From: Raja brachyura | Taxonomy: Eukaryota | Direction: 5' to 3' | DNA: 64,000 bases | NCBI GenBank assembly: GCA_963514005.1 | Contig: OY740783.1 | Coordinates: forward strand, 23,002,001 to 23,066,000 | Shown: one piece after another, positions 23,843-64,000 of the stretch | How the letters are laid out: each line of letters opens with the position of its first letter | Numbering within the stretch: the first letter of the stretch is position 1 | Program-made: the position numbers and the translations under genes | Notes under the pieces: generated by a model | Told to the model about the DNA's origin: nothing | Seen by the model: only the letters and a program-made list of their open reading frames with translations | The model's database searches: none

Positions 23843-23844
23843 GA

Positions 23845-25510: not shown

Positions 25511-25512
25511 AC

Positions 25513-32660: not shown

Positions 32661-32774
32661 TGTAACATTTTAGTATCTGCCTTGCCTTAATTCATTCCTT
32701 CCTGCTTAGTCACCTGGGAGAATGTTTCATGGCAAGTGCTTCAAGATGAACTTCTTATTGCTTTGTGGGCTTCT

Positions 32775-39215: not shown

Positions 39216-39340
39216 TTATGTGTAGGAAGGAGCTACAGATGCTGGTTTAAACCGAAGAGTCTGAAGAAGGGTCTCAACCCGAAACGTCACCCATTCCTTC
39301 TCTCCAGAGATGCTGAGTTACTCTTGCATTTGGTGTCTAT
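39216..39340. mobile_element. Penelope-derived short element
   Basis: CTGAAGAAGGGTCTCAACCCGAAACGTCACC; TSD CTCCGATCACTC (39204-39215, 39341-39352). Confidence 0.72.
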
Positions 39341-39869: not shown

Positions 39870-40425
39870 ATTGGTATTGGTGTGGGTTTATTATTGTCAT
39901 GTGATCCAGGATACAGTGATAAACTTTGTTTTGCATGCTATTCGGGCAAATCAAACTATACATAAGTAGTGCAAACAGGAAAGAAAACAGACAGAATGTG
40001 GTGTTACAGCTGTAAAGAAATTGCTGAAAAATACAGTGTATAGATTGCAGCAACTAGATGAGGAGAAGAGGAACCCACTTGTGGGCATGGGCAAGGTCTG
40101 TTTAATGATCTGATAACAGTGGAGAAGAAGTTGTATTTGAATCTGGTGGTAATTGGTCTTGTATCTTCTGATCAACGGGACAGGGGAGAAGAGAGAATGG
40201 CAGTGGGTGTGAGTGGTCCTCAATTATGTTGACTGCTTTCCTGAGCCAGCAAGAAGTGTAAATGGAGACAGTGGCAGGGTGGTGAAGTCTGGTTTGTGTG
40301 ATGCACTCGGTTATATCCATGAACCTCTGCAATTTTGCTATTTCTTGCGATCCTGGGCAGAGCAGTGGCCATATCAAATTATGATGCATCTTATAGCAAT
40401 TGCTTCTGTAGCAACTGGCAAGAGT
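39870..40425 (-). mobile_element. Rex1/Babar-L2-group LINE 3' fragment (degenerate)
   Basis: LQRFMD...IYTSCWLRKAVNIIEDHSHP; 3' region similar to the 22415-23005 copy. Confidence 0.65.
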
Positions 40426-42369: not shown

Positions 42370-43253
42370 TGCTAGGAGGCTGCAGGGTGATTTGGATAGG
42401 CTGAGTGAATGGGCAGATGCATGGCAGATGCAGTATAATGTGGATAAATGTGAGGCTATCCACTTTGGTGGCAAAAACATGATGGTAGACTATTATCTGA
42501 ATGGTGGCAGATTAGGAAAAGGGGAGATGCAACGAGACCTGGGTGTCATGGTACACCAGTCATTGAAAGTAGGCATGCAGGTGTAGCAGGCAGTGAAGAA
42601 AGCAAATGGTATGTTAGCATTCATAGCGAAAGGATTTGAGTATAGGAGCAGGGAGGTTCTAATGCAGTTGTACAGGGTTTTGGTGAGACCACACCTGGAG
42701 TATTGCGTACAGTTTTGGTCTCCTAATCTGAGGAAAGACATTCTTGCCATAGAGGGGGTTCAGAGAAGGTTCACCAGACTGATTCCTGGGATGTCAGGAC
42801 TTTCATATGAAGAAAGACTGGATAGACCCGGCTTTGTACTCACTGGAATTTAGAAGATTGAGGGGGGATCTTATAGAAACTTACAAAATTCTTAAGGGGT
42901 TGGACAAGCTAGATGCAGGAAGATTGTTCCCGATGTTGGGGGAGTCCAGAACAAGGGTCTCAGTCTGAGGATAAGGGGGAATTCCTTTAGGACCGAGATG
43001 AGGAAAACATTCTTTACAAGAGAGTGGTGAGTCTCTGGAATTCTCTGCCACAGAAGGTCGTTGAGGCCAGTTCATTGGCTATATTCAAGAGGGAGTTGGA
43101 TGTGGCTCTTGTGGCTAAAGGGACCAGGGGGTATGGAGAGAAGGCAGGTATGGGATACTGAGTTGGATGATCAGCCATGATCATATTGAATGGCGGTGCA
43201 GGCTCGAAGGGCCAAATGGCCTACTCTTGCACCTATTTTTCTATGTTTCTATG
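42370..43253 (+). mobile_element. CR1-type (HER1-like) LINE, ~0.9-kb 3' portion
   Basis: LQGDLDRLSEWADAWQMQYNVDKC, KKANGMLAFI...LVRPHLEYCVQFWSPNLRKDI; tail tttctatgtttctatg. Confidence 0.93.
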
Positions 43254-43498
43254 AATCAAATCAGGTGATCCCTCAGATGGGTGCTTGATCTACCCTGCTC
43301 AATCAATGTCCTTATGGTGAGGCTGAAAGTCTGGAACTTCATTCCCAGTCAGTGGCACCAGAAAACTGCTGCATCAGTGTGTTGTCCTCACAATTAATTC
43401 GATTGAATAGTGGAAAAGAGCACAGCAGAAGCAAGGTATAATGAGCTGACACTTCTATGGCGAACAAAGCACAAAGTGCTGGAGGAACTCAATGGGTA

Positions 43499-43691
43499 AA
43501 GGGCCTGTCCCACTTGGCGATTTTTATTTCAAAATCCAGCGGCGACAAAAAAAAATGTTGCGACACCTGAGGAAACATCGCGCGTCAATACGTTATCATG
43601 CAGCATCATGCTACAACTTTTTCGGTGACCTGATACGTCAGTCAATGATGCCGGCAGTCGCCGAAAAAATTGCCAAATGGGACAGGCCCTT
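43499..43691. mobile_element. Short TIR element (MITE, PIF/Harbinger-like termini)
   Basis: AAGGGCCTGTCCCACTTGGCGATTTTT ... AAAAATTGCCAAATGGGACAGGCCCTT inverted termini; inserted in a Penelope-derived element. Confidence 0.75.
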
Positions 43692-43910
43692 TGGGCAGCA
43701 AATGGGGAGGGAATGGACGGGTGATGTTTTGGCTCATAGTAGGGTCCTTCTTCAGCCTTCTATGGAGACCCTTTCACTCTCAGCCACTGATTGGGGATAT
43801 ATTAAAAAGGTGCTAGATGTTATTTATTGCTCCTTTGGAATCCAATCCATACTTAGAATATCACATTTTCCAATGTTATACCACCAGTTCTATTATTATA
43901 CAAGACAATA

Positions 43911-44206
43911 CGCAACGGTGGCACAGCTGTAGAGTTGCTGCCTTACAGTGCCAGTGACCAGGGTTCGATCCTGACTACAGGTGCTTATCTGTACGGAGCT
44001 TGTACATTCTTCCCATGACCTGCGTGGGTTTGCTCCAGGAGCTCCTATTTCCACCCACATTCCAAAGATGTACAGGTTTGTAGGTTAATTAGATTGGTAA
44101 AATTGTGAATCATCCCTAGTGTGTGTGGGATAGCGTTAGTGTGCGGGGATCGCTGGTCAGCATGGATCTGGTAGGCCGAAGGGCCTGTATCACCAAATCT
44201 CTAAAA
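43911..44206 (+). mobile_element. tRNA-derived SINE
   Basis: cggtggcacagctgtagag, gggttcgatcctgact. Confidence 0.82.
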
Positions 44207-45057
44207 ACAAATCACCCCTCCTCGAAGATCAACATCTTTCAGAGAACTTTTGACTTCCATTACTCCCCACCGTAAATCCATGTTCCCCAAGCACACCCAT
44301 GTGCGTCAGTCAAATCCATTACTAAATCTGCTATTCCGATTGAAACAATAATTAGCCCCAAACCTGTAAATTCCTCGCATGTCATGTCAGCAAAAAGTTA
44401 TTAACTTTAAGATCAGTATAAGTGTTTATAAATGTCATGGGACCTGCTGAAGTATTACAATATGAAAACATGTGAACTTAATATAAACAAAGTTATTATT
44501 GGAAAGGATTGTGCAAACCATAACACAACTTTTAATACTTAGCAACCGTGTAAAGTTGAAGGAACCCAGCTTGAAGTCACTCAGACTCCATTTTAGGGAA
44601 ATTAAATACATGCGATGAAGTTAGAAATTGCCTTATCTAGAAGGAAATTTAAATTGAAATTTATCTCCATTGTGACTGTAGTACCAAAGGCCAGAGAACA
44701 TGCAGTATGTCTGCAGTGTTAAGCTTTCCTCTGTAGCTTTTTGTTATGTTTAATAAATCTCCATGTCACATTCTGTGGGCTCTTGCCGAGTCATGATACA
44801 AAATTGAATGGTGCTGCATGGCATTAATCTTTTAAAATGTTGAATTGCATCTATGGGTGTAGAAACACCAGAGCAATTACATTATAATTGTGCCAGAGCA
44901 ATTACTTTTCATCACAGATTAATATAGTGTGTTGGAACTGTGAGGAACAACGACTTGATTCTAATTGTGAAATGTGGCTTCCACGTTTATCAGATATTGG
45001 CATTTAAAATAATTTTGGATAGGCATATGGACATGCAGGGAATGGGGGATGTGCATT

Positions 45058-45352
45058 TTTTAGTTTAGTTTAGAGATACAGTGCAGAAACAGATCCTTTG
45101 GCCCACCAAGTCTGTACCAACCAGCGATCCCAGCACATTAGCACTATCCTGCACACACTAGGGACAATTTACACGTATACCAAGCTAATTAACCTACAAA
45201 CCTGTACGTCTTTAGAGTGTGGGGAGAAACCGAAGATCGCGGAGAAAAGCCTGTACAGACAGCACCCGTCGTCGGGATCGAACCTGGGTCTCTGGCACTG
45301 TTCTCCCCATGTTGTGAAGCAGCAACTCTACTGTTGTGCCACCGAGCTGCCC
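45058..45352 (-). mobile_element. tRNA-derived SINE
   Basis: tagtttagtttag tail, gggatcgaacctggg. Confidence 0.82.
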
Positions 45353-46614
45353 CTATGTGCAGGTTGATAAGAGATGGTCTTGGCATCATGTTTGGTACTG
45401 ACATTGTGGGCTAAAGGGCCTGTTCTTGTGCTGCACTGTTCTATGTTCTATGAAGCACTGTTTTAGTTTATAATGGACCTGATAATAGTAATAACTGCTT
45501 GAAACAGTAAGGGGAGAGAAATGCAAAAGCTAGGATTCCTGGTACATTTGCAGTAAATATTTCCTATTTAAGTGATGATGTATTCTTGGGTCATGCAAGG
45601 AAAATTGCGGAAGGATCCCAGCCTTCTGTGTATTCCCTCCACAGATGCTGCCTGACCCACCCAACACTTGTGTGTTCTGCACAATGACTTAACTGACAAT
45701 GATGATGATTCACTAAGTGAACATCCCACTTGAGAAGGATCATGCCAAACACTGCAATTACTGTAGCCACGAGACAGCATTGGATTCAGCCAGTAACATA
45801 GTTATTCTGTGCAGTTTACTTATTGGCAGTGAGAGGAGGTATTATGAAGTATTTGCCCAAGCAGGCCAAATGTTTCAGTACAAGTTCCAGTACTATTATG
45901 GGCTTCAACAAATAGTTAAAGACAATTTGCAGTTATTACCTTTACACAGCATGGCAGTACATGTTAATTAGTAGCTACGAGTTGAGAACTACAATTTCAC
46001 TTGGAGGTGCTCCTTCGTCTGAGTGATCTGATGTCGATGATACCACCTAATTTTTGTCACAGCTGTACCAAGGCTATTAAGTTGGGACATCTAAAAGAAA
46101 AGGCTTAGATGGATCAGCAATGTCCTCGGGCTGTATTTCCGAGAAATGAACAAACAAGCCTGGCTTGTCTGACTATTGTATGGTAAAAATTGAAGTTCTG
46201 GGGGGGGGGGGGGGGGATCAGCTCATGAATGTGCCTTTTGATAACAAAGTTCAATTGAAATTAATACATTTTCTATTTTTGAGGGGGAAAAAATTATGTC
46301 GAAATTCATCCTTCATTCCAATACTGAAAATGTAACATAGTACCAGCTGTGCATTGAAGCCCTGTCAAAGTCATTGGAATCAAATCATGGAAGTAGCATA
46401 TGGTCAAAATATAGCAAATCATTAACATTGTGATTTACATTGTGAATGTTTAACATTATAAATCAAGGACTCGTTTCTTTTTTTTCCTGTGAATTCTGCT
46501 TGTTTCCTCTAAACACCTTGTGCTTTGATCATTCTATATTTTTGTCTAAAATTCCCAGAATTTCCAATCATTTGCTGTTCACTTGTTGATTTTAATTATA
46601 TTCCCCATATTTAG

Positions 46615-47230
46615 AGTCTGAGTTTAGAGTTTAGAAACAAACCCTTCGACCCACCTTGCCCACACTGACCAACGTGCCCCATCTACATTTATCCCACCTG
46701 CCTGCATTTGGCCCATATCCCTCTAAACCTATCCGATCCATGTACCTGTCCAAATCTTTTTTTAAATGTTTGTTATGCTATTTTGATGAATGACCAATAG
46801 ACAAAGGTGCAGGAGTAGGCCATTCGGCCCTTCGAGTCAGCACCGCCATTCAATGTGATCATGGCTGATCATCCCCAATCAGTACCCCGTTCCTGCCTTC
46901 TCCCCATACCCGACTCCGCTATTTTTAAGAGCCCTATCTAGCTCTCACTTGAAAGCATCCAGAGAACCTGCCTCCATCGCTCTCTGAGGCAGAGAATTCC
47001 ACAGACTCACCACTCTCTGTGAGAAAAAGTGTTTCCTCATCTCCGTTCTAAATGGCTTACTACTTATTCTTAAACTGTGGCCCCTGGCTCCAAGCTCTTA
47101 ACAATCTTATATGTTTCAATGAGATCCTCTTTCATCCTTCTAAACTCCAGAGTGTACAAGCCCAGCTGCTCCATGATGCTGATCCATGTCCCTCTATGTC
47201 CTGCCTTCACATGTGCCTAATTGCTTCTTC
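46615..47230 (-). mobile_element. Nested CR1-type LINE 3' fragments
   Basis: ggtgcaggagtaggccattcggcccttcgag, gagaattccacagactcaccactctctgtg. Confidence 0.75.
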
Positions 47231-47671
47231 ACAGTTTAGTTTTAAGCATGTTTTTTTTAATGTTGTAATACCGTAATTATTATTTTAAAATAATTTAAGA
47301 AGCATTTAGACAGGTACGTGGGTAGGATAGGTTTGGAGGGATATGGGCCAAAGGTAGGCAGGTGAGACTAGTGTAGATGGATCATGTTGGTTGGCGGGGG
47401 CAATTTGGGCCGAAGGGCCTGTTTCCATGCTGTGTTCTGCTTCCTGTTCTGAGTAGTTAGGTTGACTGTGTGGAGTTTGCTAATTCTCCCTCTGACCACT
47501 TGGGTTTGCTCCGGTTTCCACCCATATCCCAAAGACGTGTGGGCTTCATGGTTAATTGGCCTCTGTAAATTGCCCCTAATGTGTAGGGAAAGAATGTGAA
47601 AGTAAGATAACATAGAACTAATGAGAATTGATGATCGATAGACTCAGTGGGCAGAAGTGTCTATTTCACAT

Positions 47672-47773
47672 TTCACAGTCTGAAGAAGGGTATCGACCCG
47701 AAACGTCACCTATCTCCTTCGCTCCTTAGATGCTGCTGCACCCGCTGAGTTTCTCCAGCTTTTTGTGTAACCC
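47672..47773 (+). mobile_element. Penelope pseudo-LTR-derived short element with minimal hammerhead core, inserted in a SINE tail
   Basis: CTGAAGAAGGGTATCGACCCGAAACGTC at ~47680-47707; TSD TGTCTATTTCACAT (47658-47671, 47774-47787). Confidence 0.75.
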
Positions 47774-48348
47774 TGTCTATTTCACATGCTGTGTCTTTCA
47801 AACAACAATAAAAGCCATAATTAACAGCAATGTACTCATCAAAGAAAAGGATGTTATTTTTAAAAAATGAAATGAAAAATAGGCAATTGATTTAAAACAA
47901 ATTCAATCAAACTGAAAGTAGAACAAACGTAGAAACGTGGAACTGCAAATGCTGGTTTACAAAAAAGAACACAAAGTGCTGGAGTAACTCAGCAGGTAAC
48001 TCAACGCAACCGGATCACCCGGAGAAAACCCATGCGATCACAGGGAGAATGCACAAACTCCACACAGACAGCTTAACTACTCAGAACAGGAAGCAGTTGG
48101 GAGTTAACCACACTGGTGGATCCAAAGTCACACGTGGCCAAATTGAGTAATGATGGCAGCCTCCGATCCTTGACGAATATTAATGGATTGGATGGGTATT
48201 TGTGGCAATTCTGTAGTTTTATGGGCATCATTACTAAGACCCAGAAATGCTACCTGACATGTTGAGTTACTCCAGCACTTTGTGTCCATTTTTGAAAGTA
48301 GAATTAATTTTGATGGGCCTGCTTCTCTTCCTAGGTTCCCATGTGTGT

Positions 48349-48381
48349 CACTGATATGCATATTTTTTAATGTATTTACAG
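48349..48381 (+). promoter_or_regulatory. Branch point and 3' splice acceptor of the giant exon
   Basis: CACTGAT (48349-48355) fits the YNYTRAY branch consensus, with the A 27 nt upstream of the acceptor G. It is followed by T-rich tattttttaatgtatttacag. Phase 1 matches the usual lectican exon phase. Confidence 0.75.
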
Positions 48382-51300
48382 AGCTTGTACCAGAAGCTGG
48401 AAAAACTCCAACAGAATCACTTTTATTGCCACTCAATCAATCGACCGAAGATGTGACGCATCCATTGGGCTCCAAGATTCACGTTGTGCACATTCACTTT
48501 GATGTCAGAGAGGAGGAGGGTGGTGGAATCATTGGCAGTGGAGAATCTGACTTTACCAAATTTCTCTTCCCGCAAGTTCCCACAGCGGCTCCAGTGCAAG
48601 ATGCGCACCCATCGCTCAGCTTTATTAATGGGAAGACGCGGATAGAATTTGAGCCGCCTTATACTCGTGGTGAGGAAGCCAGGGGAGACCAAGTAGAAAG
48701 GGTATCTCCCAGTATAAGTGCAATACCAGACATGGATGTTATAGAAAAAGATGATGAAAGCAAGGAGGACTTCTTAACGATTGAGAGTAGAACTGCTGAA
48801 AGTCAGGAACCAGGAATCTCCACTGAGAGATCAAAAACCGTTTCCAGTGTTAAAAGTCCATCCGAAAGACCCACGGTTACAGAAAGGCAGATAAGAATCC
48901 ATTCTAGTGTTACTGGAGGACATTTGGACATCTTACCCAGCACGCAAGATGCTCAAAAGACACCCACACAGATTTTCACCACAGAATCAACGGAGGGAAA
49001 ACCTCACCTCTTTGGGATTGTTACAACTGCATCAGAAGACGTTACTTCGCCAAAAACTGAAACAGTGACCGGGACTGAAGACATCATTTCACACGAAACA
49101 ATTGATAAAGAAACGGTTGAGGCTTCTGTTGAAGGGTTTGAGCTGGTTTCTACTACAATTCCAGGTGCCCCTCATAAAACAACTACCAAACCAAGGACGC
49201 CGGAGCTATATCCAACAACCTTTGAAAAAGATGTAAAACAGGAAACAGCAGCACCGATAGAAATGTACATAGAAACCTTGTCCACATCTGGACCTGATGC
49301 GAGTCGTGGTGGAGAAATGCTTAGTCCTTCACCGGTTACAAAGTTAGTTGTCCCTCCCAGTATTATTGTACCATCTGCAACTGAAGAAAGTCGAGCCACG
49401 ATCCCAGAAAGAAAGCGAGAACAAACTAAAGCTGTCACAGAATCATATGACGTCAGTGAGGGCAAAACATTAAAACCAGAAGAAAGTACAGAGGAACTAA
49501 AACGTGAAGTAGGTTCTATTACACCAAGCAAATTATCAATAAGCAGAGCTGAAATTGTAACCGACAAACCTGAATGGGACTCTTCTAAAGTAACAAAACC
49601 TGTGGAGAAAAAAATCCAAGACATTGAGAAACTTAAAGAAGCCACAAGCATAGCCACGCCATTTACAGAGTTAGGTTCAGGTGAACCACTGAGTAAGGAT
49701 ACAGTTAGTTTATCATTCACAGAGGTGCCCACAGTGATCGTTGAAAAGGAAACCTTACAGACGTTTGTTTCAGTGACGACAACAGCAGTCGACGAGAGAA
49801 TTCCCGATGATGCCCTCACAACGACTTTTGATAAGCAAACTCACGCAGTTAGATCGCAAACACCATCAGTGATATCTGAGAGTAAAACCAGCCCTGATAA
49901 AATGGTTGTGGAATCAACTGTGAAACATCCAACAATTGAGGTATTGACAGAGAAATCTCCAGTCAAAGAAGTATCTTCTCGTGATTTTGAGAGTTCTGGT
50001 GCAGGAATGTTTACTGTCAGACCCACAGGACAGTTCAGTCCTGATATTTCCACACTTGAGGTGAGCAGTCATGAGTCTCCAGTGACTAGCAGAACATTAT
50101 TGGATGAGGTAACCCTTCACAGTGCTGTTCCAGCAGTACACGATCAAGATATTGGAATAGCCGCATCTGGATTACCTGAGGCACACACCCAGAGGGAAGA
50201 TTTGCTAGTAAAAGTCCACACAGAGGTGGAAGACAAGTCTGCTGCTACAGTTGTGGTTAGCGACAAGGAAACCGGATATACATTTGATTCAGTGACAAGA
50301 GAAATAGATGATGGAGAACGCCCTATCACTGCTTCCACAGTAATTGAAGAATTCACGTCAGAAGGACCATCAGTCATCACTGAGCTCAAAACCACCCTAG
50401 AGAAAAAGGTTACAGCATCAACTTTGAAACCTCCTGCAATTGGCGAAACCAGACTAATGGAAAAAGTTTCAGTCAAACCAACCCCTTCTCCAGAAATTGT
50501 AAGTTCTCGTGAAAAAATGGTTACATCCAAACAAATGGTTCAATTTGGGCCTGACGATTCCACATTAGAAATGAGCTCTACACCTTTACCAGTGACCACG
50601 AAAACATTAGTTGATGGGAAAGCTCTCCACAGTACAGCTGCAGTTACACGTGAGAGTGAGGAGGAATCTTCTGGTTCTGGTTTGCTGGAGGCACACACAG
50701 TGAGGGATGGTTTGCTGGTCAAAGTCCACACACAGCTGGCAGAAAAGTCTACATCAACAGTCATCGTTGATCATGAGGAAACCAGATATACATCAGTTTC
50801 AGTCACCAGTGAAGTAGAAGATGCAGCTCCTCATGATACTGTTACACCTGTAATTGTAAAAACAACCCAAGAAACCTCATCGGCAGCACCGTCAGTGATC
50901 ACGGAGATCAAAACAACACCAAAGAAAGTGGTTACAGCCTCCACTATGAAGCCTCCATCAATTGACGAATCAGGAATAACGGAGAAAGTTGCAGATGAAC
51001 TACCCCGTTCCCCAGATTTTGAGAGTTCCGGTGAAGGAATATTTACAATCAGACCCACGGGCCGTTTTTTTCCTGACATTTCCACACCAGAGGTGAGCCG
51101 CCATGAGTCTACAGTGACAAGCAGAACTTCATTGGATGGGGAGGTACTTCACAGTGCTGTTCCTGTAGCACCCGATCGAGAGACTGGAATACCAACATCT
51201 GCATTAACTGAGGCACACACACGCACTGAAGGTTTCCAGGTGAAAGACCACACAGAGGTGGAAGACAAGACTGCAGCAACAGTTGTGGACGGTGATAAGG

Positions 51301-54300
51301 AATCCTATACGATTGATTCAGTGACACGAAAAATAGCTGAAGGGGATCACACTGCCACTGCTGCCACTGTAATTAAAAAAAAGTTACCAGAATTCACATC
51401 AGAAGTACCATCAGTGATCACAGAGATCAAAACCACCCCAGAGAAAGTGGTTACAAAGTCAACAGTAAAGCCTCCTGCATCCATGGAATCGGGAATAACA
51501 GCAAAGGTCTCAGTCAAGCTAACTCCTTCTCCAGAATTTGAGAGTTCTGGTGAAGAGCTGATTACTACTGGAGAAGGAATGATTACGACCGGACACACTG
51601 GCCGCTTTGAACCTGACGTCTCCACTTTAGAAATGAGGTCTACTCTTTCTCCAGTGCCCAGTAAAGCTTTAGTGGATGCGGAAGCTGTACACAGCACTGT
51701 CATATTTGCACATGAGAGAGCGGAGACACACACACCGAGGGACGGTTTGCTGGTAAAGGTCCGCACACAGACGACAAATGAGCCTGCTTCAACAGTTGTG
51801 GTTGGCGATAAGGAAACCAAATATACATCCCATTCAGCCAGCAGTGAAATAGAAGAGGGAATTCCCCAATATATTCTTACACCTGCAATTGCAAAAGTAT
51901 CTCAAGAATCTTCATCAGAAGCACCATCAGTGACTGCTGAGATCAAAACCATTCCAGAGAAAGTGGCCATGGAGTCAACTGTGAAACCTCCAACAATTGA
52001 TAGATCAGGAATAACGGAGAAAGTTGCAGACAAACTACCATTTTTTCCAGAGTTTGAGAGTTCTGGTGAAGGATTATTTCCCATCAAACCCACTGGCCAG
52101 TTTCAAACTGGTGCATCCACACTAGAGGTGAGCGGGCAAGAAACTCCAGTGACCAGCAGAATATCTTTGGATGGGGAAGTACTTCACAGTGCTGTTCCAG
52201 CAACAACTGATCAAGAGACTAGAATAACAACATCTGCATTACCTGACGCACACACACAAAGAGAAGGATTGATGGAAAAAGTCCACACGCAGGCAAAAGA
52301 ACTAGTCGAAGGAGAACGCCCTGTCACTGCTACTCCAGTAATTAAAACAAAGTTACAAGAATCCACATCAGAAGCACCATCAGAGATCAAAACCATCCCA
52401 GAGAAAGTGGTTGGGACATCAACTGTGAAATCACCAGCAACTGTGGAAACAGAGATAACAGAGAAGGTTTCAGTCAAACTACCTTCTTCCGTAGTATTTG
52501 AGAGTTCTGGTGAAGAGCTGATTACTTCCAAACAAATTGCACAATTTCGAACTGACATTTCCACCACAGAAATAAGCTCTACCCTTTTACCAGTCACCAG
52601 TAAAACTCCAGTGGATGCAAAAATTCCCCAGAGCACCGTTACTGTTACACTTGAGAGTGACAAGTCTGCATCTACTGTCGAAATTGGCGAGAAGGAAACC
52701 AGATACACGTTAGTTCCAGTCACCAGTGAAATGGAAGAGGTTTCTCCTCATGATGCAGTTACACCAGTCATTGGAAAAGCTTCATCGAAAATACCATCAG
52801 TGATCACTGAGACCAAAACAATCTCAGGGAAAGTGGTTATGGCATCAACTGTGAAAACATCTGCAATTTATGAATCGGGAATAACAGAGAAAGTTCCAGA
52901 CAAACTGCAGCCTTCTCCAGAATTTGAGAGTTCTGGTGAAGAAACATTCAGTATTGGACACACTGGCCGGTTTGAACCTGATGTTTCCACACTGGAGATG
53001 AGCAGCCAAGAAACTCCAGTGACAAGCATAACATTATTGGATGAGGAAGCTCTTCACAGTGCTGTTCCAGCAGCAACTGATCAAAAGACAGGACTAGTCA
53101 CATCTCGATTACCTGACACACACACACACACTGATAGTTTGATGGTAAAAGTCCAGACACAGGTGGAAGACAGAACGGCAGCAACAGATGTGGCAGGTGA
53201 GAAAGAAACCAGGTATACATTTGATTCAGTGACAAAAGAACTAGTCGAAGGAGAACGCCCTGTCACTGCTACCCCAACAATTAAAACAACGTTACAAGAA
53301 TCCACATCAGAAGCACCATCAGTGATCACTGAGGTCAAAACCATCCCAGAGAAAGTGGTTGTCACATCAACTGTGAAATCACCAGCAACTGTGGAAACGG
53401 AGATAACAGAGAAAGTTGCAGTCAAACTACCTCCTTCTGTAGAATTTGAGACTTCTGGTGAAAAACTGATTACTTCCAAACAAATTACACAATTTGGAAC
53501 TGACATTTCCACCACAGAAATAAGCTCTACCCTTTTACCAGTCACCAGTAAAACTCCAGTGGATGCAAAAATTCCCCAGAGCACCGTTACTGTTGCACGT
53601 GAGAGTGAGGAGGAAATTTCTGGGTCTGGCTCATCGGAGATACACACAGAGTGGGATGGTTTGCTGGTTAAAGTACACACACAAACAACTGGCAAGTCTG
53701 CATCTACAGTTGTGATGGGAGAGAAGGAAACCAGATACACGTTAGTTCCAGTCACCAGTGAAATGGAAGAGGTTTCTCCTCATGATACAGTTACACCAGT
53801 CATTGGAAAAGCTTCATCGAAAATACCATTAGTCATCACTGAGATCAAAACAATCGCTGGGAAAGTGGTTATGGCGTCAACTGTGAAACCATCTGCAATT
53901 TATGAATCGGGAATAACGGAGAAAGTTCCAGACAAACTGCAGCCTTCTCCAGAATTTGAGAGTTCTGGTGAAGAAACATTCAGTATTGGACATACTGGCC
54001 GGTTTGAACCTGATGTTTCCACACTGGAGATGAGCAGCCAAGAAACTCCAGTGACAAGCAGAACTTTATTGGATGAGGAAGCTCTTCACAGTGCTGTTCC
54101 AGCAGCAACTGATCAAAAGACTGGACTAGTCACATCTGGATTACCTGACATACACACACGCACTGATGGTTTGATGCAGACACAGGTGGAAGACAGAACG
54201 GCAGCAACAGATGTGGCAGGTGAGAAAGAAACCAGGTATACATTTGATTCTGTGACAAAAGAACTAGTCGAAGGAGAACGCCCTGTCACTGCTACCCCAG

Positions 54301-57300
54301 TAACTAAAACGACGTTACAAGAATCCATCTCAGAAGCACCATCAGTGATCACTGAGGTCAAAACCATCCCAGAGAAAGTGGTTGTCGCATCAACTATGAA
54401 ATCACCAGCAACTGTGGAAACGGAGATAATAGAGAAAGTTTCAGTCAAACTACCTTCTTCTGTAGAATTTGAGAGTTCTGGTGAAGAGCTGATTACTTCC
54501 AAACAATTTGGAACTGATATTTCCACCACAGAAATAAGCTCTACCCTGTTACCAGTTACCAGTGAAATTCCAGTGGATGCAAAAATTCCCCAGAGCACCG
54601 TTACTGTTCCACGTGAGAGTGAGGAGGAAATTTCTGGGTCTGGCTCGTCGGAGATACATACAAAGTGGGATCGTTTGCTGGTTAAAGTGCACACACAAAC
54701 AACTGACAAGTCTGCATCTACTGTCGAAATTGGCGAGAAGGAAACCAGATCCACGTTAGTTCCAGTCACCAGTGAAATGGAAGAGGTTTCTCCTCATGAT
54801 ACAGTTACACCAGTCATTGGAAAAGTTTCATCGAAAATACCATCAGTGATCACTGAGATCAAAACAATCGCTGGGAAAGTGGTTATGGCGTCAACTGTGA
54901 AACCATCTGCAATTTATGAATCAGGAATAACGGAGAAAGTTTCAGACAAACTGCAGCCTTCTCCAGAATTTGAGAGTTCTGGTGAAGAAACATTCAGTAT
55001 TGGACACGCTGGCCGGTTTGAACCTGATGTTTCCAAACTGGAGATGAGCAGCCAAGAAACACCAGTGACAAGCAGAACTTTATTGGATGAGGAAGCTCTT
55101 CAAAGTGCTGTTCCAGCAGCAACTGATCAAGAGACTGGACTAGTCACATCTGGATTACCGGACACACACACACACACTGATGGTTTGATGGTAAAAGTCC
55201 AGACACAGGTGGAAGACAGAACGGCAGCAACAGGTGTGGCAGGTGAGAAAGAAACCAGGTATACATTTGATTCTGTGACAAAAGAACTAGTCGAAGGAGA
55301 ACGCCCTGTCACTGCTACCCCATTAATTAAAACGACGTTACAGGAATCCATCTCAGAAGCACCATCAGTGATCACTGAGGTCAAAACCATCCCAGAGAAG
55401 ATGGTTGTCACATCAACTATGAAATCACCAGCAACTGTGGAAACGGAGATAACAGAGAAAGTTACAGTCAAACTACCTCCTTCTGTAGAATTTGAGAGTT
55501 CTGGTGAAGAGCTGATTACTTCCAAACAAATTGCACAATTTGGAACTGATATTTCCACCACAGAAATAAGCTCTACCCTGTTACCAGTTACCAGTAAAAC
55601 TCCAGTGGATGCAAAAATTCCCCAGAGCACCGTTACTGTGACACGTGAGAGTGAGGAGGAAGTTTCTGGGTCTGGCTCGTCTGAGATACACACAGAGTGG
55701 GATCGTTTGCTGGTTAAAGTGCACACACAAACAACTGACATGTCTGCATCCACTGTCGAAATTGGCGAGAAGGAAACCAGATACACGTTAGTTCCAGTCA
55801 CCAGTGAAATGGAAGAGGTTTCTCCTCATGATGCAGTTACACCAGTCATTGGAAAAGCTTCATCGAAAATACCATCAGTCATCACTGAGATCAAAACCAT
55901 CACAGGGAAAGTGGTTATGGCGTCAACTGTGAAATCCTCTGCAATTTATGAATCGGGAATAACGGAGAAAGTTCCAGACAAACTGCAGCCTTCTCCAGAA
56001 TTTGAGAGTTCTGGTGAAGAAACATTCAGTATTGGACACACTGGCCGGTTTGAACCTGATGTTTCCACACTGGAGATGAGCAGCCAAAAAACTCCAGTGA
56101 CAAGCAGAACTTTATTGGATGAGGAAGCTCTTCGCACTGCTGTTCCAGCAGCAACTGATCAAAAGACTGGACTAGTCACATCTGGATTACCTGAGACACA
56201 CACACGCACTGATGGTTTGATGCAGACACAGGTGGAAGACAGAACGGCAGCAACAGATGTGACAGGTGAGAAAGAAACCAGGTATACATTTGATTCTGTG
56301 ACAAAAGAACTAGTCGAAGGAGAACGCCCTGTCACTGCTACCCCATTAATTAAAACAACATTACCAGAATCCACATCAGAAGCACCATCAGTGATCACTG
56401 AGGTCAAAACCATCCCAGAGAAAGTGGTTGTCACATCAACTATGAAATCACCAGCAACTGTGGAAACGGAGATAACAGAGAAAGTTTCAGTCAAACTACC
56501 TCCTTCTGTAGAATTTGAGAGTTCTGGTGAAGAGCTGATTACTTCCAAACAAATTGCACAATTTGGAACTGATATTTCCACCACAGAAATAAGCTCTACC
56601 CTGTTACCAGTTACCAGTGAAATTCCAATGGATGCAAAAATTCCCCAGAGCACCGTTACTGTTCCACTTGAGAGTGAGGAGGAAATTTCTGGGTCTGGCT
56701 CGTCGGAGATACATACAAAGTGGGATCGTTTGCTGGTTAAAGTGCACACACAAACAACTGACAAGTCTGCATCTACTGTCGAAATTGGCGAGAAGGAAAC
56801 CAGATCCACGTTAGTTCCAGTCACCAGTGAAATGGAAGAGGTTTCTCCTCATGATACAGTTACACCAGTCATTGGAAAAGTTTCATCGAAAATACCATCA
56901 GTGATCGCTGGGAAAGTGGTTATGGCGTCAACTGTGAAACCATCTGCAATTTATGAATCAGGAATAACGGAGAAAGTTTCAGACAAACTGCAGCCTTCTC
57001 CAGAATTTGAGAGTTCTGGTGAAGAAACATTCAGTATTGGACACGCTGGCCGGTTTGAACCTGATGTTTCCAAACTGGAGATGAGCAGCCAAGAAACACC
57101 AGTGACAAGCAGAACTTTATTGGATGAGGAAGCTCTTCACAGTGCTGTTCCAGCAGCAACTGATCAAGAGACTGGACTAGTCACATCTGGATTACCGGAC
57201 ACACAAACACACACTGATGGTTTGATGGTAAAAGTCCAGACACAGGTGGAAGACAGAACGGCAGCAACAGGTGTGGCAGGTGAGAAAGAAACCAGGTATA

Positions 57301-60300
57301 CATTTGATTCTGTGACAAAAGAACTAGTCGAAGGAGAACGCCCTGTCACTGCTACCCCATTAATTAAAACGACGTTACAGGAATCCATCTCAGAAGCACC
57401 ATCAGTGATCACTGAGGTCAAAACCATCCCAGAGAAGGTGGTTGTCACATCAACTATGAAATCACCAGCAACTGTGGAAATGGAGATAACAGAGAAAGTT
57501 ACAGTCAAACTACCTCCTTCTGTAGAATTTGAGAGTTCTGGTGAAGAGCTGATTACTTCCAAACAAATTGCACAATTTGGAACTGATATTTCCACCACAG
57601 AAATAAGCTCTACCCTGTTACCAGTTACCAGTAAAACTCCAGTGGATGCAAAATATCCCCAGAGCACCGTTACTGTGACACGTGAGAGTGAGGAGGAAGT
57701 TTCTGGGTCTGGCTCGTCGGAGATACACACAGAGTGGGATCGTTTGCTGGTTAAAGTGCACACACAAACAACTGACATGTCTGCATCCACTGTCGAAATT
57801 GGCGAGAAGGAAACCAGATACACGTTAGTTCCAGTCACCAGTGAAATGGAAGAGGTTTCTCCTCATGATGCAGTTACACCAGTCATTGGAAAAGCTTCAT
57901 CGAAAATACCATCAGTCATCACTGAGATCAAAACCATCACAGGGAAAGTGGTTATGGCGTCAACTGTGAAATCCTCTGCAATTTATGAATCGGGAATAAC
58001 GGAGAAAGTTCCAGACAAACTGCAGCCTTCTCCAGAATTTGAGAGTTCTGGTGAAGAAACATTCAGTATTGGACACACTGGCCGGTTTGAACCTGATGTT
58101 TCCACACTGGAGATGAGCAGCCAAAAAACTCCAGTGACAAGCAGAACTTTATTGGATGAGGAAGCTCTTCGCAGTGCTGTTCCAGCAGCAACTGATCAAA
58201 AGACGGGACTAGTCACATCTGGATTACCTGAGACACACACACGCACTGATGGTTTGATGCAGACACAGGTGGAAGACAGAAAGGCAGCAACAGATGTGAC
58301 AGGTGAGAAAGAAACCAGGTATACATTTGATTCTGTGACAAAAGAACTAGTCGAAGGAGAACGCCCTGTCACTGCTTCCCCATTAATTAAAACAACATTA
58401 CCAGAATCCACATCAGAAGCACCATCAGTGATCACTGAGGTCAAAACCATCCCAGAGAAAGTGGTTGTCACATCAACTATGAAATCACCAGCAACTGTGG
58501 AAACGGAGATAACAGAGAAAGTTTCAGTCAAACTACCTCCTTCTGTAGAATTTGAGAGTTCTGGTGAAGAGCTGATTACTTCCAAACAAATTGCACAATT
58601 TGGAACTGATATATCCACCACAGAAATAAGCTCTGCTCTGTTACCAGTTACCAGTAAAACTCCAGTGGCTGCAAAAATTCCCCAGAGCACCGTTACTGTT
58701 ACACGTGAGAGTGAGGAGGAAATTTCTGGGTCTGGCTTGTCAGAGATACACACAGAGTGGGATCGTTTGCTGGTTAAAGTGCACACACAAATAACTGACA
58801 AGTCTACATCTACTGTCGACATTGGCGAGAAGGAAACCAGATACACGTTAGTTCCAGTCACCAGTGAAATGGAAGAGGTTTCTCCTCATGATGCAGTTAC
58901 ACCAGTCATTAGAAAAGCTTCATCGAAAATACCATCAGTCATCACTGAGATCAAAACCATCACAGGGAAAGTGGTTATGGCGTCAACTGTGAAACCCTCT
59001 GCAATTTATGAATCGGGAATAACGGAGAAAGTTCCAGACAAACTGCAGCCTTCTCCAGAATTTGAGAGTTCTGGTGAAGAACCATTCAGTATTGGACACA
59101 CTGGCCGGTTTGAACCTGATGTTTCCACACTGGAGATGAGCAGCCAAGAAACTCCAGTGACAAGCAGAACTTTATTGGATGAGGAAGCTCTTCGCAGTGC
59201 TGTTCCAGCAGCAACTGATCAAAAGACTGGACTAGCCACATCTGGATTACCTGAGACACACACACACACTGATGGTTTGATGCAGACACAGGTGGAAGAC
59301 AGAACGGCAGCAACAGATGTGACAGGTGAGAAAGAAACCAGGTATACATTTGATTCTGTGACAAAAGAACTAGTCGAAGGAGAACGCCCTGTCACTGCTA
59401 CCCCATTAATTAAAACAACATTACCACAATCCACACCAGAAGCACCATCAGTGATCACTGAGGTCAAAACCATCCCAGAGAAAGTGGTTGTCACATCAAC
59501 TATGAAATATCCAGCAACTGTGGAAACGGAGATAACAGAGAAAGTTACAGTCAAACTACCTTCTTCTGTAGAATTTGAGAGTTCTGGTGAAGAGCTGATT
59601 ACTTCCAAACAAATTGCACAATTTGGAACTGATATTTCCACCACTGAAATAAGCTCTGCCCTGTTACCAGTTACAAGTAAAACTCCAGTGGATGCAAAAA
59701 TTCCCCAGAGCACCGTTACTGTTACACGTGAGAGTGAGGAGGAAATTTCTGGGTCTGGCTTGTCGGAGATACACACAGAGTGGGATCGTTTGCTGGTTAA
59801 AGTGCACACACAAACAACTGACAAGTCTGCATCTACTGTCGAAATTGGCGAGAAGGAAACCAGATACACGTTAGTTCCAGTCACCAGCGAAATGGAAGAG
59901 GTTTCTCCTCATGATGCAGTTACACCAGTCATTGGAAAAGCTTCATCGAAAATACCATCAGTCATCACTGAGATCAAAACCATCACAGGGAAAGTGGTTA
60001 TGGCGTCAACTGTGAAACCCTCTGCAATTTATGAATCGGGAATAACGGAGAAAGTTCCAGACAAACTGCAGCCTTCTCCAGAATTTGAGAGTTCTGGTGA
60101 AGAAACATTCAGTATTGGACACACTGGCCGGTTTGAACCTGATGTTTCCAAAATGGAGATGAGCAGCCAAGAAACTCCAGTGACAAGCAGAACTTTATTG
60201 GATGAGGAAGCTCTTCACAGTGCTGTTCCAGCAGCAACTGATCAAGAGACTGGACTAGTCACATCTGGATTACCGGACACACACACACACACTGATGGTT

Positions 60301-63300
60301 TGATGGTAAAAGTCCAGACACAGGTGGAAGACAGAACGGCAGCAACGGGTGTGGCAGGTGAGAAAGAAACCAGGTATGCATTTGATTCTGTGACAGAAGA
60401 ACTAGTCGAAGGAGAACGCCCTGTCACTGCTACCCCAGTAATTAAAACAATGTTACAAGAATCCATCTCAGAAGCACCATTAGTGATCACTGAGATCAAA
60501 ACCATCCCAGAGAAAGTGGTTGTCACATCAACTATGAAATCACCAGCAACTGTGGAAACGGAGATAACAGAGAAAGTTACAGTCAAACTACCTCCTTCTG
60601 TAGAATTTGAGAGTTCTGGTGAAGAGCTGATTACTTCCAAACAAATTGCACAATTTGGAACTGATATTTCCACCACTGAAATAAGCTCTGCCCTGTTACC
60701 AGTTACAAGTAAAACTCCAGTGGATGCAAAAATTCCCCAGAGCACCATTACTGTTACACGTGAGAGTGAGGAGGAAATTTCTGGGTCTGGCTTGTCGGAG
60801 ATACACACAGAGTGGGATCGTTTGCTGGTTAAAGTGCACACACAAACAACTGACAAGTCTGCATCTACTGTCGAAATTGGCGAGAAGGAAACCAGATACA
60901 CGTTAGTTCCAGTCACCAGCGAAATGGAAGAGGTTTCTCCTCATGATGCAGTTACACCAGTCATTGGAAAAGCTTCATCGAAAATACCATCAGTCATCAC
61001 TGAGATCAAAACCATCACAGGGAAAGTGGTTATGGCGTCAACTGTGAAACCCTCTGCAATTTATGAATCGGGAATAACGGAGAAAGTTCCAGACAAACTG
61101 CAGCCTTCTCCAGAATTTGAGAGTTCTGGTGAAGAAACATTCAGTATTGGACACACAGGCCGGTTTGAACCTGATGTTTCCAAAATGGAGATGAGCAGCC
61201 AAGAAACTCCAGTGACAAGCAGAACTTTATTGGATGAGGAAGCTCTTCACAGTGCTGTTCCAGCAGCAACTGATCAAGAGACTGGACTAGTCACATCTGG
61301 ATTACCGGACACACACACACACACTGATGGTTTGATGGTAAAAGTCCAGACACAGGTGGAAGACAGAACGGCAGCAACAAGTGTGGCAGGTGAGCAAGAA
61401 ACCAGGTATACATTTGATTCTGTGACAAAAGAACTAGTCGAAGGCGAACGCACTGTCACTGCTACCCCATTAATTAAAACAACATTACCAGAATCCACAT
61501 CAGAAGCACCATCGGTGATCAATGAGGTCAAAACCATCCCAGAGAAAGTGGTTGTCACATCAACTATGAAATCACCAGCAACTGTGGAAACGGAGATAAC
61601 AGAGAAAGTTTCAGTCAAACTACCTCCTTCTGTAGAATTTGAGAGTTCTGGTGAAGAGCTGATTACTTCCAAACAAATTGCACAATTTGGAACTGATATA
61701 TCCACCACAGAAATAAGCTCTGCCCTGTTACCAGTTACCAGTAAAACTCCAGTGGCTGCAAAAATTCCCCAGAGCACCGTTACTGTTACACGTGAGAGTG
61801 AGGAGGAAATTTCTGGGTCTGGCTCGTCGGAGATACACACAGAGTGGGATCGTTTGCTGGTTAAAGTGCACACACAAACAACTGAGAAGTCTGCATCTAC
61901 TGTCGAAATTGGTGAGAAGGAAACCAGATACACGTTAGTTCCAGTCACCAGTGAAATGGAAGAGGTTTCTCCTCATGATGCAGTTACACCACTCATTGGA
62001 AAAGCTTCATCGGAAATACCATCAGTCATCACTGAGATCAAAACCATCACAGGGAAAGTGGTTATGGCGTCAACTGTGAAACCCTCTGCAATTTATGAAT
62101 CGGGAATAACGGAGAAAGTTCCAGACAAACTGCAGCCTTCTCCAGAATTTGAGAGTTCTGGTGAAGAACCATTCAGTATTGGACACACTGGCCGGTTTGA
62201 ACCTGATGTTTCCAAACTGGAGATGAGCAGCCAAGAAACTCCAGTGACAAGCAGAACTTTATTGGATGAGGAAGCTCTTCACAGTGCTGTTCCAGCAGCA
62301 ACTGATCAAAAGACTGGACTAGCCACATCTGGATTACCTGAGACACACACACACACTGATGGTTTGATGGTAAAAGTCCAGACACAGGTGGAAGACAGAA
62401 CGGCAGCAACAGGTGTGGCAGGTGAGAAAGAAACCAGGTATACATTTGATTATGTGACAAAAGAACTAGTCGAAGGAGAACGCCCTGTCACTGCTACCCC
62501 AGTAATTAAAACAACGTTAGAAGAATCCATCTCAGAAGCACCATCAGTGATCACTGAGATCAAAACCATCCCAGAGAAGGTGGTTGTCACATCAACTATG
62601 AAATCACCAGCAACTGTGGAAACGGAGATAACAGAGAAAGTTACAGTCAAACTAACTCCTTCTGTAGAATTTGAGAGTTCTGGTGAAGAGCTGATTACTT
62701 CCAAACAAATTGCACAATTTGGAACTGATATTTCCACCACAGAAATAAGCTCTACCCTGTTACCAGTTACCAGTAAAACTCCAGTGGATGCAAAATATCC
62801 CCAGAGCACCGTTACTGTACCACGTGAGAGTGAGGAGGAAATTTCTGGGTCTGGCTCGTCGGAGATACACACAGAGTGGGATCGTTTGCTGGTTAAAGTG
62901 CACACACAAACAACTGACAAGTCTGCATCTACAGTTGTGATTGGCGAGAAGGAAACCAGATACACGTTAGTTCCAGTCACTAGTGAAATGGAAGAGGTTT
63001 CTCCTCATGATGCAGTTACACCAGTCATTGGAAAAGCTTCATCGAAAATACCATCAGTCATCACTGAGATCAAAACCATCACAGGGAAAGTGTTTATGGC
63101 GTCAACTGTGAAACCCTTTGCAATTTTTGAATCGGAAATAACTGAGAAAGTTCCAGACAAACTGCAGCCTTCTCCAGAATTTGAGAGTTCTGGTGAAGAA
63201 ACATTCAGTATTGGACACACTGGCCGCTTTGAACCTGATGTTTCCAAACTGGAGATGAGCAGCCAAGAAACTCCAGTGACAAGCAGAACTTTATTGGATG

Positions 63301-64000
63301 AGGAAGCTCTTCACAGTGCTGTTCCAGCAGCAACTGATCAAGAGACTGGACTAGTCACATCTGGATTACCTGACACACACACACGCACTGATGGTTTGAT
63401 GCAGACACAGGTGGAAGACAGAACGGCGGCAACAGATGTGACAGGTGAGAAAGAAACCAGGTATACATTTGATTCTGTGACAAAAGAACTAGTCGAAGGA
63501 GAACGCCCTGTCACTGCTACCCCAGTAATTAAAACAACGTTACAAGAATCCATCTCAGAAGCACCATTGGTGATCACTGAGATCAAAACCATCCCAGAGA
63601 AAGTGGTTGTCACATCAACTATGAAATCACCAGCAACTGTGGAAACACAGATATCAGAGAAAGTTACAGTCAAACTACCTCCATCTATAGAATTTGAGAG
63701 TTCTGGTGAAGAGCTGATTACTTCCAAACAAATTGCACAATTTGGAACTGATATTTCCACCACAGAAATAAGCTCTGCCCTGTTACCAGTTACCAGTAAA
63801 ACTCCAGTGGATGCAAAAATTCCCCAGAGCACTGTTACTGTTACACGTGAGAGTGAGGAGGAAATTTCTGGGTCTGGCTCGTCGGAGATACACACAGAGT
63901 GGGATCGTTTGCTGGTTAAAGTGCACACACAAACAACTGACAAGTCTGCAGCTACAGTTGTGATTGGCGAGAAGGAAACCAGATACACATTAGTTCCAGT
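48382..64000 (+). CDS. vcan: Giant internal coding exon (3' end beyond window) of a lectican proteoglycan, most likely the versican GAG-beta domain; Ser/Thr/Glu/Pro/Val-rich, >=5,200 aa
   Basis: Acceptor ttacag ends at 48381; phase-1 entry, codons start at 48384: xLVPEAGKTPTESLLLPLNQSTEDVTHPLGSKIHVVHIHFDVREEEGGGIIGSGESDFTKFLFPQVPTAAPVQDAHPSLSFINGKTRIEFEPPYTRGEEARGDQVERVSPS. SFINGK...EEARGDQVE resembles human versican QYINGK...DPEAAE-ARRGQFE at a similar distance (~95-100 aa) from the exon start. The same frame holds at 55083 and at the window end (63963 ATT GGC GAG AAG...). The ORF track lists no closed ORF in this frame. Many acidic Ser-Gly sites. Confidence 0.82.
49860..53080 (+). repeat. 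Diverged 5' part of the coding array (~430-520-bp half-unit copies)
   Basis: Recurrent PSVI(T/S)E.KT, GxKETxY and (D/E/V)FESSG motifs near 49983, 50493 (degenerate), 51015, 51534, 52050, 52494 and 52920. Confidence 0.85.
53081..64000 (+). repeat. Homogeneous coding tandem array, 1032-bp (344-aa) unit; 10 full units plus a partial unit truncated by the window end
   Basis: The marker tcaa(a/g)agac recurs at 53081, 54113, 55127, 56159, 57164, 58196, 59219, 60242, 61274, 62306 and 63338. Spacings are 1032/1014/1032/1005/1032/1023/1023/1032/1032/1032, all multiples of 3. Confidence 0.97.

What the first reader, a model, noticed from the sequence alone, without database searches (positions are those of the whole stretch)
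52211..64000. Unrecognised 344-aa tandem protein repeat built hierarchically (172 aa -> 344 aa)
Seen: unit LDEEAL..ATDQETGLVTSGLPDTHTHTDGLMVKVQTQ..GEKETRYTF..PSVITEVKTI..EFESSGEE..RESEEE(I/V)SGSGSSEIHTEWDRLLVKVHTQ..GEKETRYTL..PSVITEIKTI..EFESSGEE..PVTSRTL. Each unit is a dimer of two diverged halves (~510 + ~522 bp). Every unit-length difference (9, 9, 18 bp; net 162 bp in the 52211 unit) preserves frame, which implies purifying selection on the protein. I do not recognise this repeat from any described family. Aggrecan's coding VNTR uses 19-aa units.
Basis: partly seen in the sequence, partly recalled or inferred. Interest (0 to 1): 0.85.

Follow-up and report, generated by a model that had tools for sequence, protein, structure and literature searches.

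The report
Giant repeat array in skate versican
This is the sugar-chain-carrying middle part of versican, a well-known vertebrate matrix proteoglycan, which in sharks and rays has been lengthened by copying a roughly 171-amino-acid block, and in this skate-like fish is at least about three times as long as in bony vertebrates.

Summary
The repeat is real. It lies in a stop-free, Cys-free frame from a predicted splice acceptor at 48380-81 to the window end (5,205 aa or more). This is the GAG-beta exon of versican in a skate-like batoid: its start matches batoid versicans and carries the motif aligned to the mammalian ADAMTS site. The array starts near 49730 and holds 28 halves of ~171 aa alternating A/B (45% identical), i.e. 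14 dimers of ~344 aa, plus a recent 2,037-bp duplication. The ~171-aa unit occurs in all 14 other elasmobranch(-like) proteins examined and in 0 of 100 bony-vertebrate versicans. The A/B dimer predates the skate-stingray split. Ser-Gly in acidic context is the best-kept feature, at about ordinary versican density, so copying mainly scales length and candidate chondroitin-sulfate sites (80 Ser-Gly versus 20-28). All 16 indels keep frame, but amino-acid constraint is weak (omega 0.6-0.7). No Pfam match and no description found in my paper searches. Verdict: known gene, apparently undescribed lineage-specific repeat, working like the aggrecan VNTR. Glycosylation, expression and polymorphism are untested.

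The parts
1..48381 (+). Intron upstream of GAG-beta (equivalent of versican intron 7), at least 48 kb, no versican exon found in it
   Evidence: tblastn of five batoid versicans at E<=1 hits only 48390 onward; the GAG-alpha part of skate-like P0009 gives no hit better than E 2.7. Intron status is inferred.
48360..48381 (+). Predicted phase-1 splice acceptor, AG at 48380-48381
   Evidence: Sequence; similarity to P0009 begins at the first residues after it (blastp query 535 = window residue 1). Not confirmed by transcript data.
48382..64000 (+). Versican GAG-beta exon (exon 8 equivalent), at least 15.6 kb and 5,205 aa, no Cys, runs off the window
   Evidence: residues 1-400 hit 5 batoid versican(-like) proteins at E 1e-86 to 1e-102.
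48606..48710 (+). Conserved GAG-beta start motif, including EE-ARGDQ at about 48672-48692, aligned with the mammalian Glu441-Ala442 ADAMTS site
   Evidence: Alignment with V1 isoforms of cow, ground squirrel and turtles; an HMM of the elasmobranch motif gives a domain hit at E<0.05 in 96 of 100 bony versicans, the 25 best all at this motif; site described in PMC11526477. Cleavage here is inferred.
48382..49730 (+). Non-repeat start of GAG-beta (about 450 aa)
   Evidence: No half-unit HMM domain before residue 450.
49731..52166 (+). Old, diverged edge of the array: one partial half, then two dimers about 75% identical in DNA to the core and to each other
   Evidence: their four full halves have their nearest neighbours in skate-like P0009, not in the window core.
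52167..53036 (+). Transitional dimer, about 93% identical to the core, with in-frame deletions of 69, 9 and 84 bp
53037..64000 (+). Homogenised core: 11 dimers of 335-344 aa (last one cut), 94-99% identical in DNA, mosaic between copies; 6 Ser-Gly per full dimer, 5 with 3 or more acidic neighbours
54867..58612 (+). Third tier: 54867-56575 repeated at lag 2,037 bp (two dimers), 11 mismatches in 1,709 nt
   Evidence: Lag scan; units 55083 and 57120 are 99.3% identical, 54069 and 56115 98.3%.

Best explanation
The stretch is the GAG-beta exon of the versican gene of a skate-like batoid. In the common ancestor of sharks and batoids a ~171-aa segment of this Ser/Thr/Glu-rich, Cys-free domain began to be tandemly copied. 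In batoids two copies diverged into A and B halves, and the A-B pair (344 aa, 1,032 bp) became the unit of copying. In this lineage the pair was recently expanded and homogenised by unequal crossing-over or gene conversion, leaving older copies at the 5' edge. The product is most likely an extended, heavily glycosylated spacer between the hyaluronan-binding G1 and the lectin G3 domains. Each added dimer adds about 344 aa and about 5-6 candidate chondroitin-sulfate sites, so copy number scales length, charge and water-holding, as the aggrecan VNTR does. Selection acts mainly on an open frame and on Ser-Gly/acidic motifs. Shown by computation: gene identity, repeat structure, distribution among sampled species, A/B age, mosaicism, frame constraint, Ser-Gly retention. 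Inferred: splicing, expression, glycosylation, ADAMTS cleavage, lack of fold, and any effect on tissue.
For: Identity. Repeat-bearing proteins have versican architecture with 2 Link stretches where G1 is present (P0001, P0011, P0012, P0013). Distribution: half-unit HMM finds the unit in the window and all 14 other proteins; best score among 100 named bony versicans 4.3 bits against 13.0 for a reversed-sequence control; phmmer of one dimer over 1.84 billion representatives gives 9 hits, 7 later named as elasmobranch. A/B age: A halves of window, Rhinoraja and Mobula form one clade (97/94); a skate-only clade is rejected, p-AU 9.5e-6, 44 rows. Homogenisation: 21 of 25 window halves have their nearest neighbour in the window; 445 of 1,485 site pairs fail the four-gamete test, rising from 9% under 50 bp to 42% beyond 400 bp. 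Ser-Gly at columns 3-4 is the best-retained of 170 dipeptides (0.91; median 0.33), and columns 60-61 rank 8th (0.71). Ser-Gly is 2.95-fold above composition expectation. AlphaFold2 gives no fold (pLDDT 44, pTM 0.11). Domain definitions from PMC4859157.
Against: G1, G3, the splice donor and flanking genes are outside the window, so orthology rests on the GAG-beta start. No transcript, proteomic or glycan data. Ser-Gly density (1.65 per 100 aa) is only slightly above bony GAG-beta (0.8-1.5), and a motif is not an occupied site; individual window copies have lost Ser-Gly. Non-Ser-Gly motifs (PVT, TP, AT) are nearly as well retained. The charge-hydropathy point (0.462 versus boundary 0.438) lies on the compact side, unlike mammalian and turtle GAG-beta. 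The fold used only 14 window sequences. Omega estimates assume a tree, which recombination violates. The B clade is weakly supported (85/94, one Narcine row outside).
Confidence: 0.8

Rival explanations
1. Same gene and exon, but the expansion is essentially neutral: a tolerant, disordered coding region undergoing runaway duplication, with selection only against stops and frameshifts and no advantage to extra length or chains.
For: Omega 0.6-0.7. Copy number varies from about 2 halves (Heptranchias) to at least 28 (window). Unrelated internal repeats of other periods (52-374 aa) appear in 7 of 100 bony versicans. Stingray arrays have not turned over: 29 of 30 halves have their nearest neighbour in another stingray.
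Against: Ser-Gly is the best-retained dipeptide across about 306 Myr (shark-batoid split, PMC3692497 abstract). Omega is significantly below 1 (2dlnL 26.3 for all units). This rival is compatible with the best explanation on everything except the adaptive value of length, which no call tested.
Confidence: 0.35
2. The ~171-aa unit is a folded or ligand-binding module (for example a beta-rich repeat domain), and A and B are specialised paralogous domains.
For: Val+Ile is 16.6% of the array; charge-hydropathy is on the compact side; unit length is kept at 170-174 aa across species; A/B alternation is kept in skates and stingrays.
Against: No Cys, 3% aromatic residues; in-frame deletions of up to 28 aa in the window and many partial units in sharks; pLDDT below 70 at all 174 residues; no Pfam or Atlas match; Pristis and Narcine full halves are B-type only.
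Confidence: 0.07
3. The copy number is inflated by assembly error.
For: Units of 1 kb at 94-99% identity are hard to assemble; the nearest skate proteins found (P0006, 1,505 aa; P0009, 2,102 aa) are fragments; reads could not be examined.
Against: No two units are identical (highest 99.3%), copies carry distinct variant mosaics, there is no frameshift or N in 15.6 kb, and differences are enriched for synonymous changes.
Confidence: 0.05
4. It is a mucin or aggrecan gene rather than versican.
For: S+T+P is 33%; NCBI names the Heterodontus fragment 'mucin-17-like'; aggrecan is the lectican with a known VNTR.
Against: Versican GAG-beta start motif present; mammalian and turtle GAG-beta have the same S+T+P, about 32%; repeat-bearing full-length proteins have 2 Link stretches; aggrecan has about 120 Ser-Gly in a ~4-kb exon, several-fold denser than here. 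No elasmobranch aggrecan was fetched for direct comparison.
Confidence: 0.02

Closest known systems
Versican (VCAN/PG-M) GAG-beta domain, exon 8
   Same: Single very large Cys-free exon, conserved start motif with the ADAMTS-site equivalent about 97 residues in, similar composition and Ser-Gly density.
   Different: At least 5,205 aa versus 1,359-1,867 aa in 97 bony versicans where the start could be placed; about 90% of the visible exon is tandem repeat of a unit not detected in 100 bony versicans.
Aggrecan CS1 coding VNTR (19 aa; 13-44 copies, linked to human height; bioRxiv 2021.01.19.427332)
   Same: Tandem coding repeat in the GAG-attachment exon of a lectican that scales the number of candidate chain sites.
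   Different: Different gene, no sequence relation seen, unit 9-18 times longer, much sparser Ser-Gly, higher-order organisation; polymorphism within species not shown here.
Filaggrin intra-exon repeats (PMC5225520, abstract)
   Same: Large repeats within a single exon, lineage-specific duplication and loss, purifying selection within species. A unit size near 1 kb is recalled, not read.
   Different: Unrelated sequence and function (filaggrin is processed into monomers, recalled); here units are A/B dimers in a secreted proteoglycan.
Annotated elasmobranch versican models (Rhinoraja LOC144611327, Pristis, Narcine, Mobula, Hypanus, Hemitrygon, Heterodontus, Scyliorhinus, Mustelus, Chiloscyllium, Heptranchias)
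   Same: Same ~171-aa unit at the same place, followed by 946-1,098 aa of non-repeat GAG-beta in the 10 proteins with G3.
   Different: They hold 2-19 halves scoring above 60 bits in those 10; the window has at least 28 and is more homogeneous. Pristis and Heterodontus are dominated by a 174-aa period; catshark and smooth-hound show periods near 492-507 aa.

Membership tests
Versican | GAG-beta N-terminal conserved motif with ADAMTS site (Glu441-Ala442 equivalent) | tested here: met
   alignment and HMM. Sequence equivalence only, cleavage untested.
Versican | Central GAG domain lacking Cys, with Ser-Gly consensus sites, encoded by one large exon | tested here: met
   0 Cys and 80 Ser-Gly in 5,205 aa; definition in PMC4859157. 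The acceptor is predicted; the donor is outside the window.
Versican | One N-terminal globular domain (Ig + 2 Link) and C-terminal EGF-EGF-lectin-Sushi | tested here: inconclusive
   Outside the window; present in repeat-bearing homologues.
Versican | Best protein matches are versicans | tested here: met
   5 of 5 hits have lectican domains; 4 are named versican-like, 1 uncharacterised.
Versican | Actual chondroitin sulfate substitution and V0/V1 splicing | not testable with these tools
   Needs RNA and glycoproteomic data.
Versican | Conserved gene neighbourhood | not testable with these tools
   The window lies wholly within the gene; no eukaryotic genome collection available.
Aggrecan | Second globular domain G2 (further Link modules) | tested here: not met
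   Repeat-bearing proteins with G1 show 2 Xlink stretches. Tested on homologues, not on the window.
Aggrecan CS1 VNTR | 19-aa unit and very dense Ser-Gly | tested here: not met
   Top periods in the window are 316-688 aa over lags 5-800; 1.65 Ser-Gly per 100 aa versus about 120 in ~4 kb.
Any Pfam repeat or domain family | Match at gathering threshold within the unit | tested here: not met
   0 families at E<=1 for one 344-aa stretch and for the first 1,000 aa. Whole-protein scores to Pop8, ALMS_repeat and Helicase_Sgs1 in homologues have 0 significant stretches and are read as summation artefacts.
Coding VNTR (polymorphic within species) | Alleles differing in copy number | not testable with these tools
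   One haplotype only.

The most novel reading that the evidence does not exclude
Elasmobranch versican has independently evolved an aggrecan-like, copy-number-tunable GAG scaffold with satellite-like tiers (a ~68-aa internal relic, 171, 344, then about 680 aa). In skates it is still expanding and polymorphic, giving a coding exon of about 18.5 kb or more and a V0 core protein near or above 8,000 aa with about three times the usual chain sites, and this length is selected for the hydration and mechanics of skate matrix.
Probability: 0.3. Interest if true: 0.62.

Novelty: new variant of a known kind. Interest (0 to 1): 0.42.

Why it matters
Versican's GAG domains are usually treated as non-repetitive and of stable length (1.4-1.9 kaa for GAG-beta in the bony vertebrates sampled). 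A shark-and-ray repeat that varies more than tenfold in copy number, frozen in stingrays but recently homogenised in skates, gives a natural series for testing whether proteoglycan core length and chain number are tuned by selection, and for studying higher-order repeat evolution inside one coding exon. It may also explain why the skate proteins found are fragments or unnamed. It does not reveal a new gene or a new biochemical mechanism.

Tried and rejected
TRF missed the array because of its 500-bp period limit. Pfam and the Atlas gave nothing for the unit; the Atlas blank is weak evidence. The long antisense ORFs of 178-232 aa are rejected as shadows: that frame has 39 stops in the core. Origin of the unit from an intronic element: no blastn match better than E 0.5 in 1-48380. 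Upstream versican exons in the window: none. The AlphaFold model was too poor for a fold search, so none was run. A self-blastn failed on scoring parameters and was replaced by a lag scan. The shark-only test of the 68-column internal repeat returned NaN and was not rerun; the batoid-only test did not recover it (best 6.6 at another lag, 4 of 100 nulls as high), so that tier is tentative. No chimaera, coelacanth or lungfish versican appeared among the 120 listed of 505 hits, so the unit's status there is unchecked. Nine of the 109 non-elasmobranch rows (7 unnamed, 2 gorilla) were dropped before the count of 100.
Full report
Observation. One + strand frame is open from 48258 to the window end, 5,247 codons. 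Anchoring on the ESSG motif gives 28 halves from 49986, alternating 522 and 510 bp when undeleted, preceded by a partial half at about 49730. A and B halves of the core are 45% identical in amino acids, against 92-93% within type. The 11 core units are 94-99% identical in DNA, the unit at 52167 about 93%, and the two upstream units about 75%. A further tier exists: 54867-56575 recurs 2,037 bp later with 11 mismatches in 1,709 nt. A profile self-comparison of 142 halves also shows a 25-column internal match at lag 68 (score 24.4; column-shuffle null 95th percentile 10.9; 0 of 100 block-shuffle nulls as high). It is visible by eye in shark rows but not recovered in batoids alone, so it is tentative.

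Identity. The first 400 residues after a predicted phase-1 acceptor at 48380-81 hit 5 proteins among 3,267 candidates, all batoid lecticans, 4 named versican-like (50-56% identity). From V0/V1 isoform pairs I located the GAG-beta start in mammals and a turtle (5 of 6 pairs gave a clean junction). The window's start aligns with it, including the motif around the mammalian Glu441-Ala442 ADAMTS site (site described in passages of PMC11526477). An HMM of this elasmobranch motif gives a domain hit at E<0.05 in 96 of 100 named bony-vertebrate versicans; the 25 best, which I inspected, are all at this motif. An unnamed skate-like protein, P0009, begins to match exactly at the first residue after the acceptor. 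No versican exon was found in 1-48381, so the preceding intron is at least 48 kb. Passages of PMC4859157 and PMC3130719 define GAG-beta as exon 8, Cys-free, with consensus GAG sites; the window exon has 0 Cys and 80 Ser-Gly in 5,205 aa. The closest named repeat relative is the skate Rhinoraja longicauda (79-83%), so the window is from a skate-like batoid, apparently a different species.

Distribution. phmmer of one dimer over 1.84 billion representatives gave 9 hits; 7 are named elasmobranch proteins and 2 are unnamed. A 171-position HMM from 149 halves finds the unit in the window and all 14 other proteins: 5 named non-skate batoids, Rhinoraja, 6 named sharks including Heptranchias, and the 2 unnamed. 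In 100 named bony versicans the best score is 4.3 bits, below the reversed control at 13.0; 9 rows were dropped beforehand (7 unnamed, 2 gorilla), and these 100 come from the 120 listed of 505 hits, mostly amniotes. Sharks and batoids split about 306 Ma (PMC3692497, abstract), a rough minimum age for the unit. Chimaeras are unchecked. In the 10 proteins with G3, 2-19 halves score above 60 bits and 946-1,098 aa of non-repeat sequence follows. So the window exon is probably 18.5 kb or more and GAG-beta 6,200 aa or more (inference), versus 1,359-1,867 aa in 97 bony versicans. Seven of the 100 bony versicans carry internal repeats of their own (periods 52-374 aa; in sturgeon and paddlefish upstream of GAG-beta, in bowfin within it), so duplication in versican GAG exons recurs.

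History of the hierarchy. In a FastTree of 142 halves and an IQ-TREE of 44 (window thinned to 10 rows, one divergent Pristis row and the Hypanus, Hemitrygon, P0009 and most shark rows left out), batoid halves group against 5 shark rows at 100/100, A halves of window, Rhinoraja and Mobula form a clade at 97/94, and a skate-only clade is rejected (p-AU 9.5e-6). B is less firm (85/94, one Narcine row outside). Full halves run strictly ABAB in the window, Rhinoraja and P0009, nearly so in stingrays, and are B-type in Pristis and Narcine (A/B labels were read from the tree). The dimer therefore predates the skate-stingray split. Sharks built other periods. Within skates the core is homogenised per lineage (21 of 25 window halves and 7 of 8 Rhinoraja halves nearest to their own), while stingray copies are positional orthologues (29 of 30 nearest to another stingray). 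Window copies are mosaics: 445 of 1,485 site pairs are four-gamete incompatible, rising with distance from 9% to 42%, as expected from unequal exchange or conversion.

Selection. All 16 indels against unit 55083 are multiples of 3; they reduce to 11 distinct events, probability about 6e-6 under a naive one-in-three null (my arithmetic). No stop occurs among 148 distinct changes where 4.8 are expected (p 0.008). Amino-acid constraint is mild: Nei-Gojobori 0.58, kappa-corrected 0.73 (p 0.044), codon-model omega 0.68 for the core (2dlnL 5.96) and 0.62 for all units (2dlnL 26.3). Recombination makes these approximate. Across species Ser-Gly at columns 3-4 is the best-retained of 170 dipeptides and is present in 129 of 142 halves; a second Ser-Gly ranks 8th; a third, making SGSG, is confined to batoid halves. 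Other motifs (PVT, TP) are also well kept, which Ser-Gly function alone does not explain.

Mechanism. A full dimer has 6 Ser-Gly, 5 with at least 3 acidic residues nearby; the array has 77, 2.95 times composition expectation, at 1.65 per 100 aa against 1.14-1.52 in five mammal and turtle V1 GAG-beta domains (20-28 sites each). So copying scales the domain at near-normal site density. AlphaFold2 on a 14-row window alignment predicts no fold (pLDDT 44), weak evidence given the shallow alignment; charge-hydropathy alone puts the naked chain on the compact side. The most likely function is an extended glycosylated spacer whose length and charge grow with copy number, like the aggrecan CS1 VNTR (passages of bioRxiv 2021.01.19.427332). 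Glycosylation, splicing, expression and polymorphism are inferred, not shown. Whether added length is adaptive or neutral cannot be separated here.

Prior knowledge. Pfam has no match. Six full-text searches aimed at this repeat or gene in cartilaginous fish listed no title or abstract start describing it; I saw listings only, at most 20 per search, the library lacks most subscription journals, and no supplements were read. Searches were for background. Large intra-exon coding repeats with lineage-specific turnover are known, for example filaggrin (PMC5225520, abstract). The homologous proteins are already in public annotations under versican-like, mucin-like or uncharacterised names.

Verdict. 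Real, correctly described, and explained as a known gene with an apparently undescribed elasmobranch repeat that is unusually expanded here. New variant of a known kind; interest 0.42.

Noticed in passing
window 29088-31185 (+) and 34076-36151 (-): Two ~2.1-kb copies in opposite orientation, 83% identical, encoding a broken DUF659 protein (E 1e-10); a weak 23-bp terminal inverted match on the first. Likely decayed DNA transposons (the link of DUF659 to hAT-like elements is recalled).
   Followed up: partly
window 8569-9096, 25172-25502, 42713-43253, 46797-47086, 4347-4491: Dispersed copies of one repeat (76-93% identical) whose translations look like the 3' end of a CR1-type LINE; the family label is recalled, not tested.
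   Followed up: no
window 28630-28811: Assembly gap of 182 N in the intron, next to a pyrimidine-rich simple-sequence stretch.
   Followed up: no
P0016, P0017, P0019, P0032, P0029, P0015, P0067: Paddlefish, sturgeon, bowfin, Sinocyclocheilus and dunnart versicans have their own internal repeats (periods 52-374 aa), not matched by the elasmobranch HMM.
   Followed up: partly
P0007 (Heterodontus francisci): Annotated 'mucin-17-like' but carries the versican GAG-beta start and 10 full halves; probably a versican fragment.
   Followed up: partly
window 48384-63998: Asn is nearly absent (0.1%; one N-glycosylation sequon in the whole visible exon), whereas human versican GAG domains are described as having several N-linked sites.
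   Followed up: no
P0003, P0004, P0005: Stingray versicans also show periods of 673-685 aa, about two dimers, like the window's third tier; whether this arose independently was not tested.
   Followed up: no
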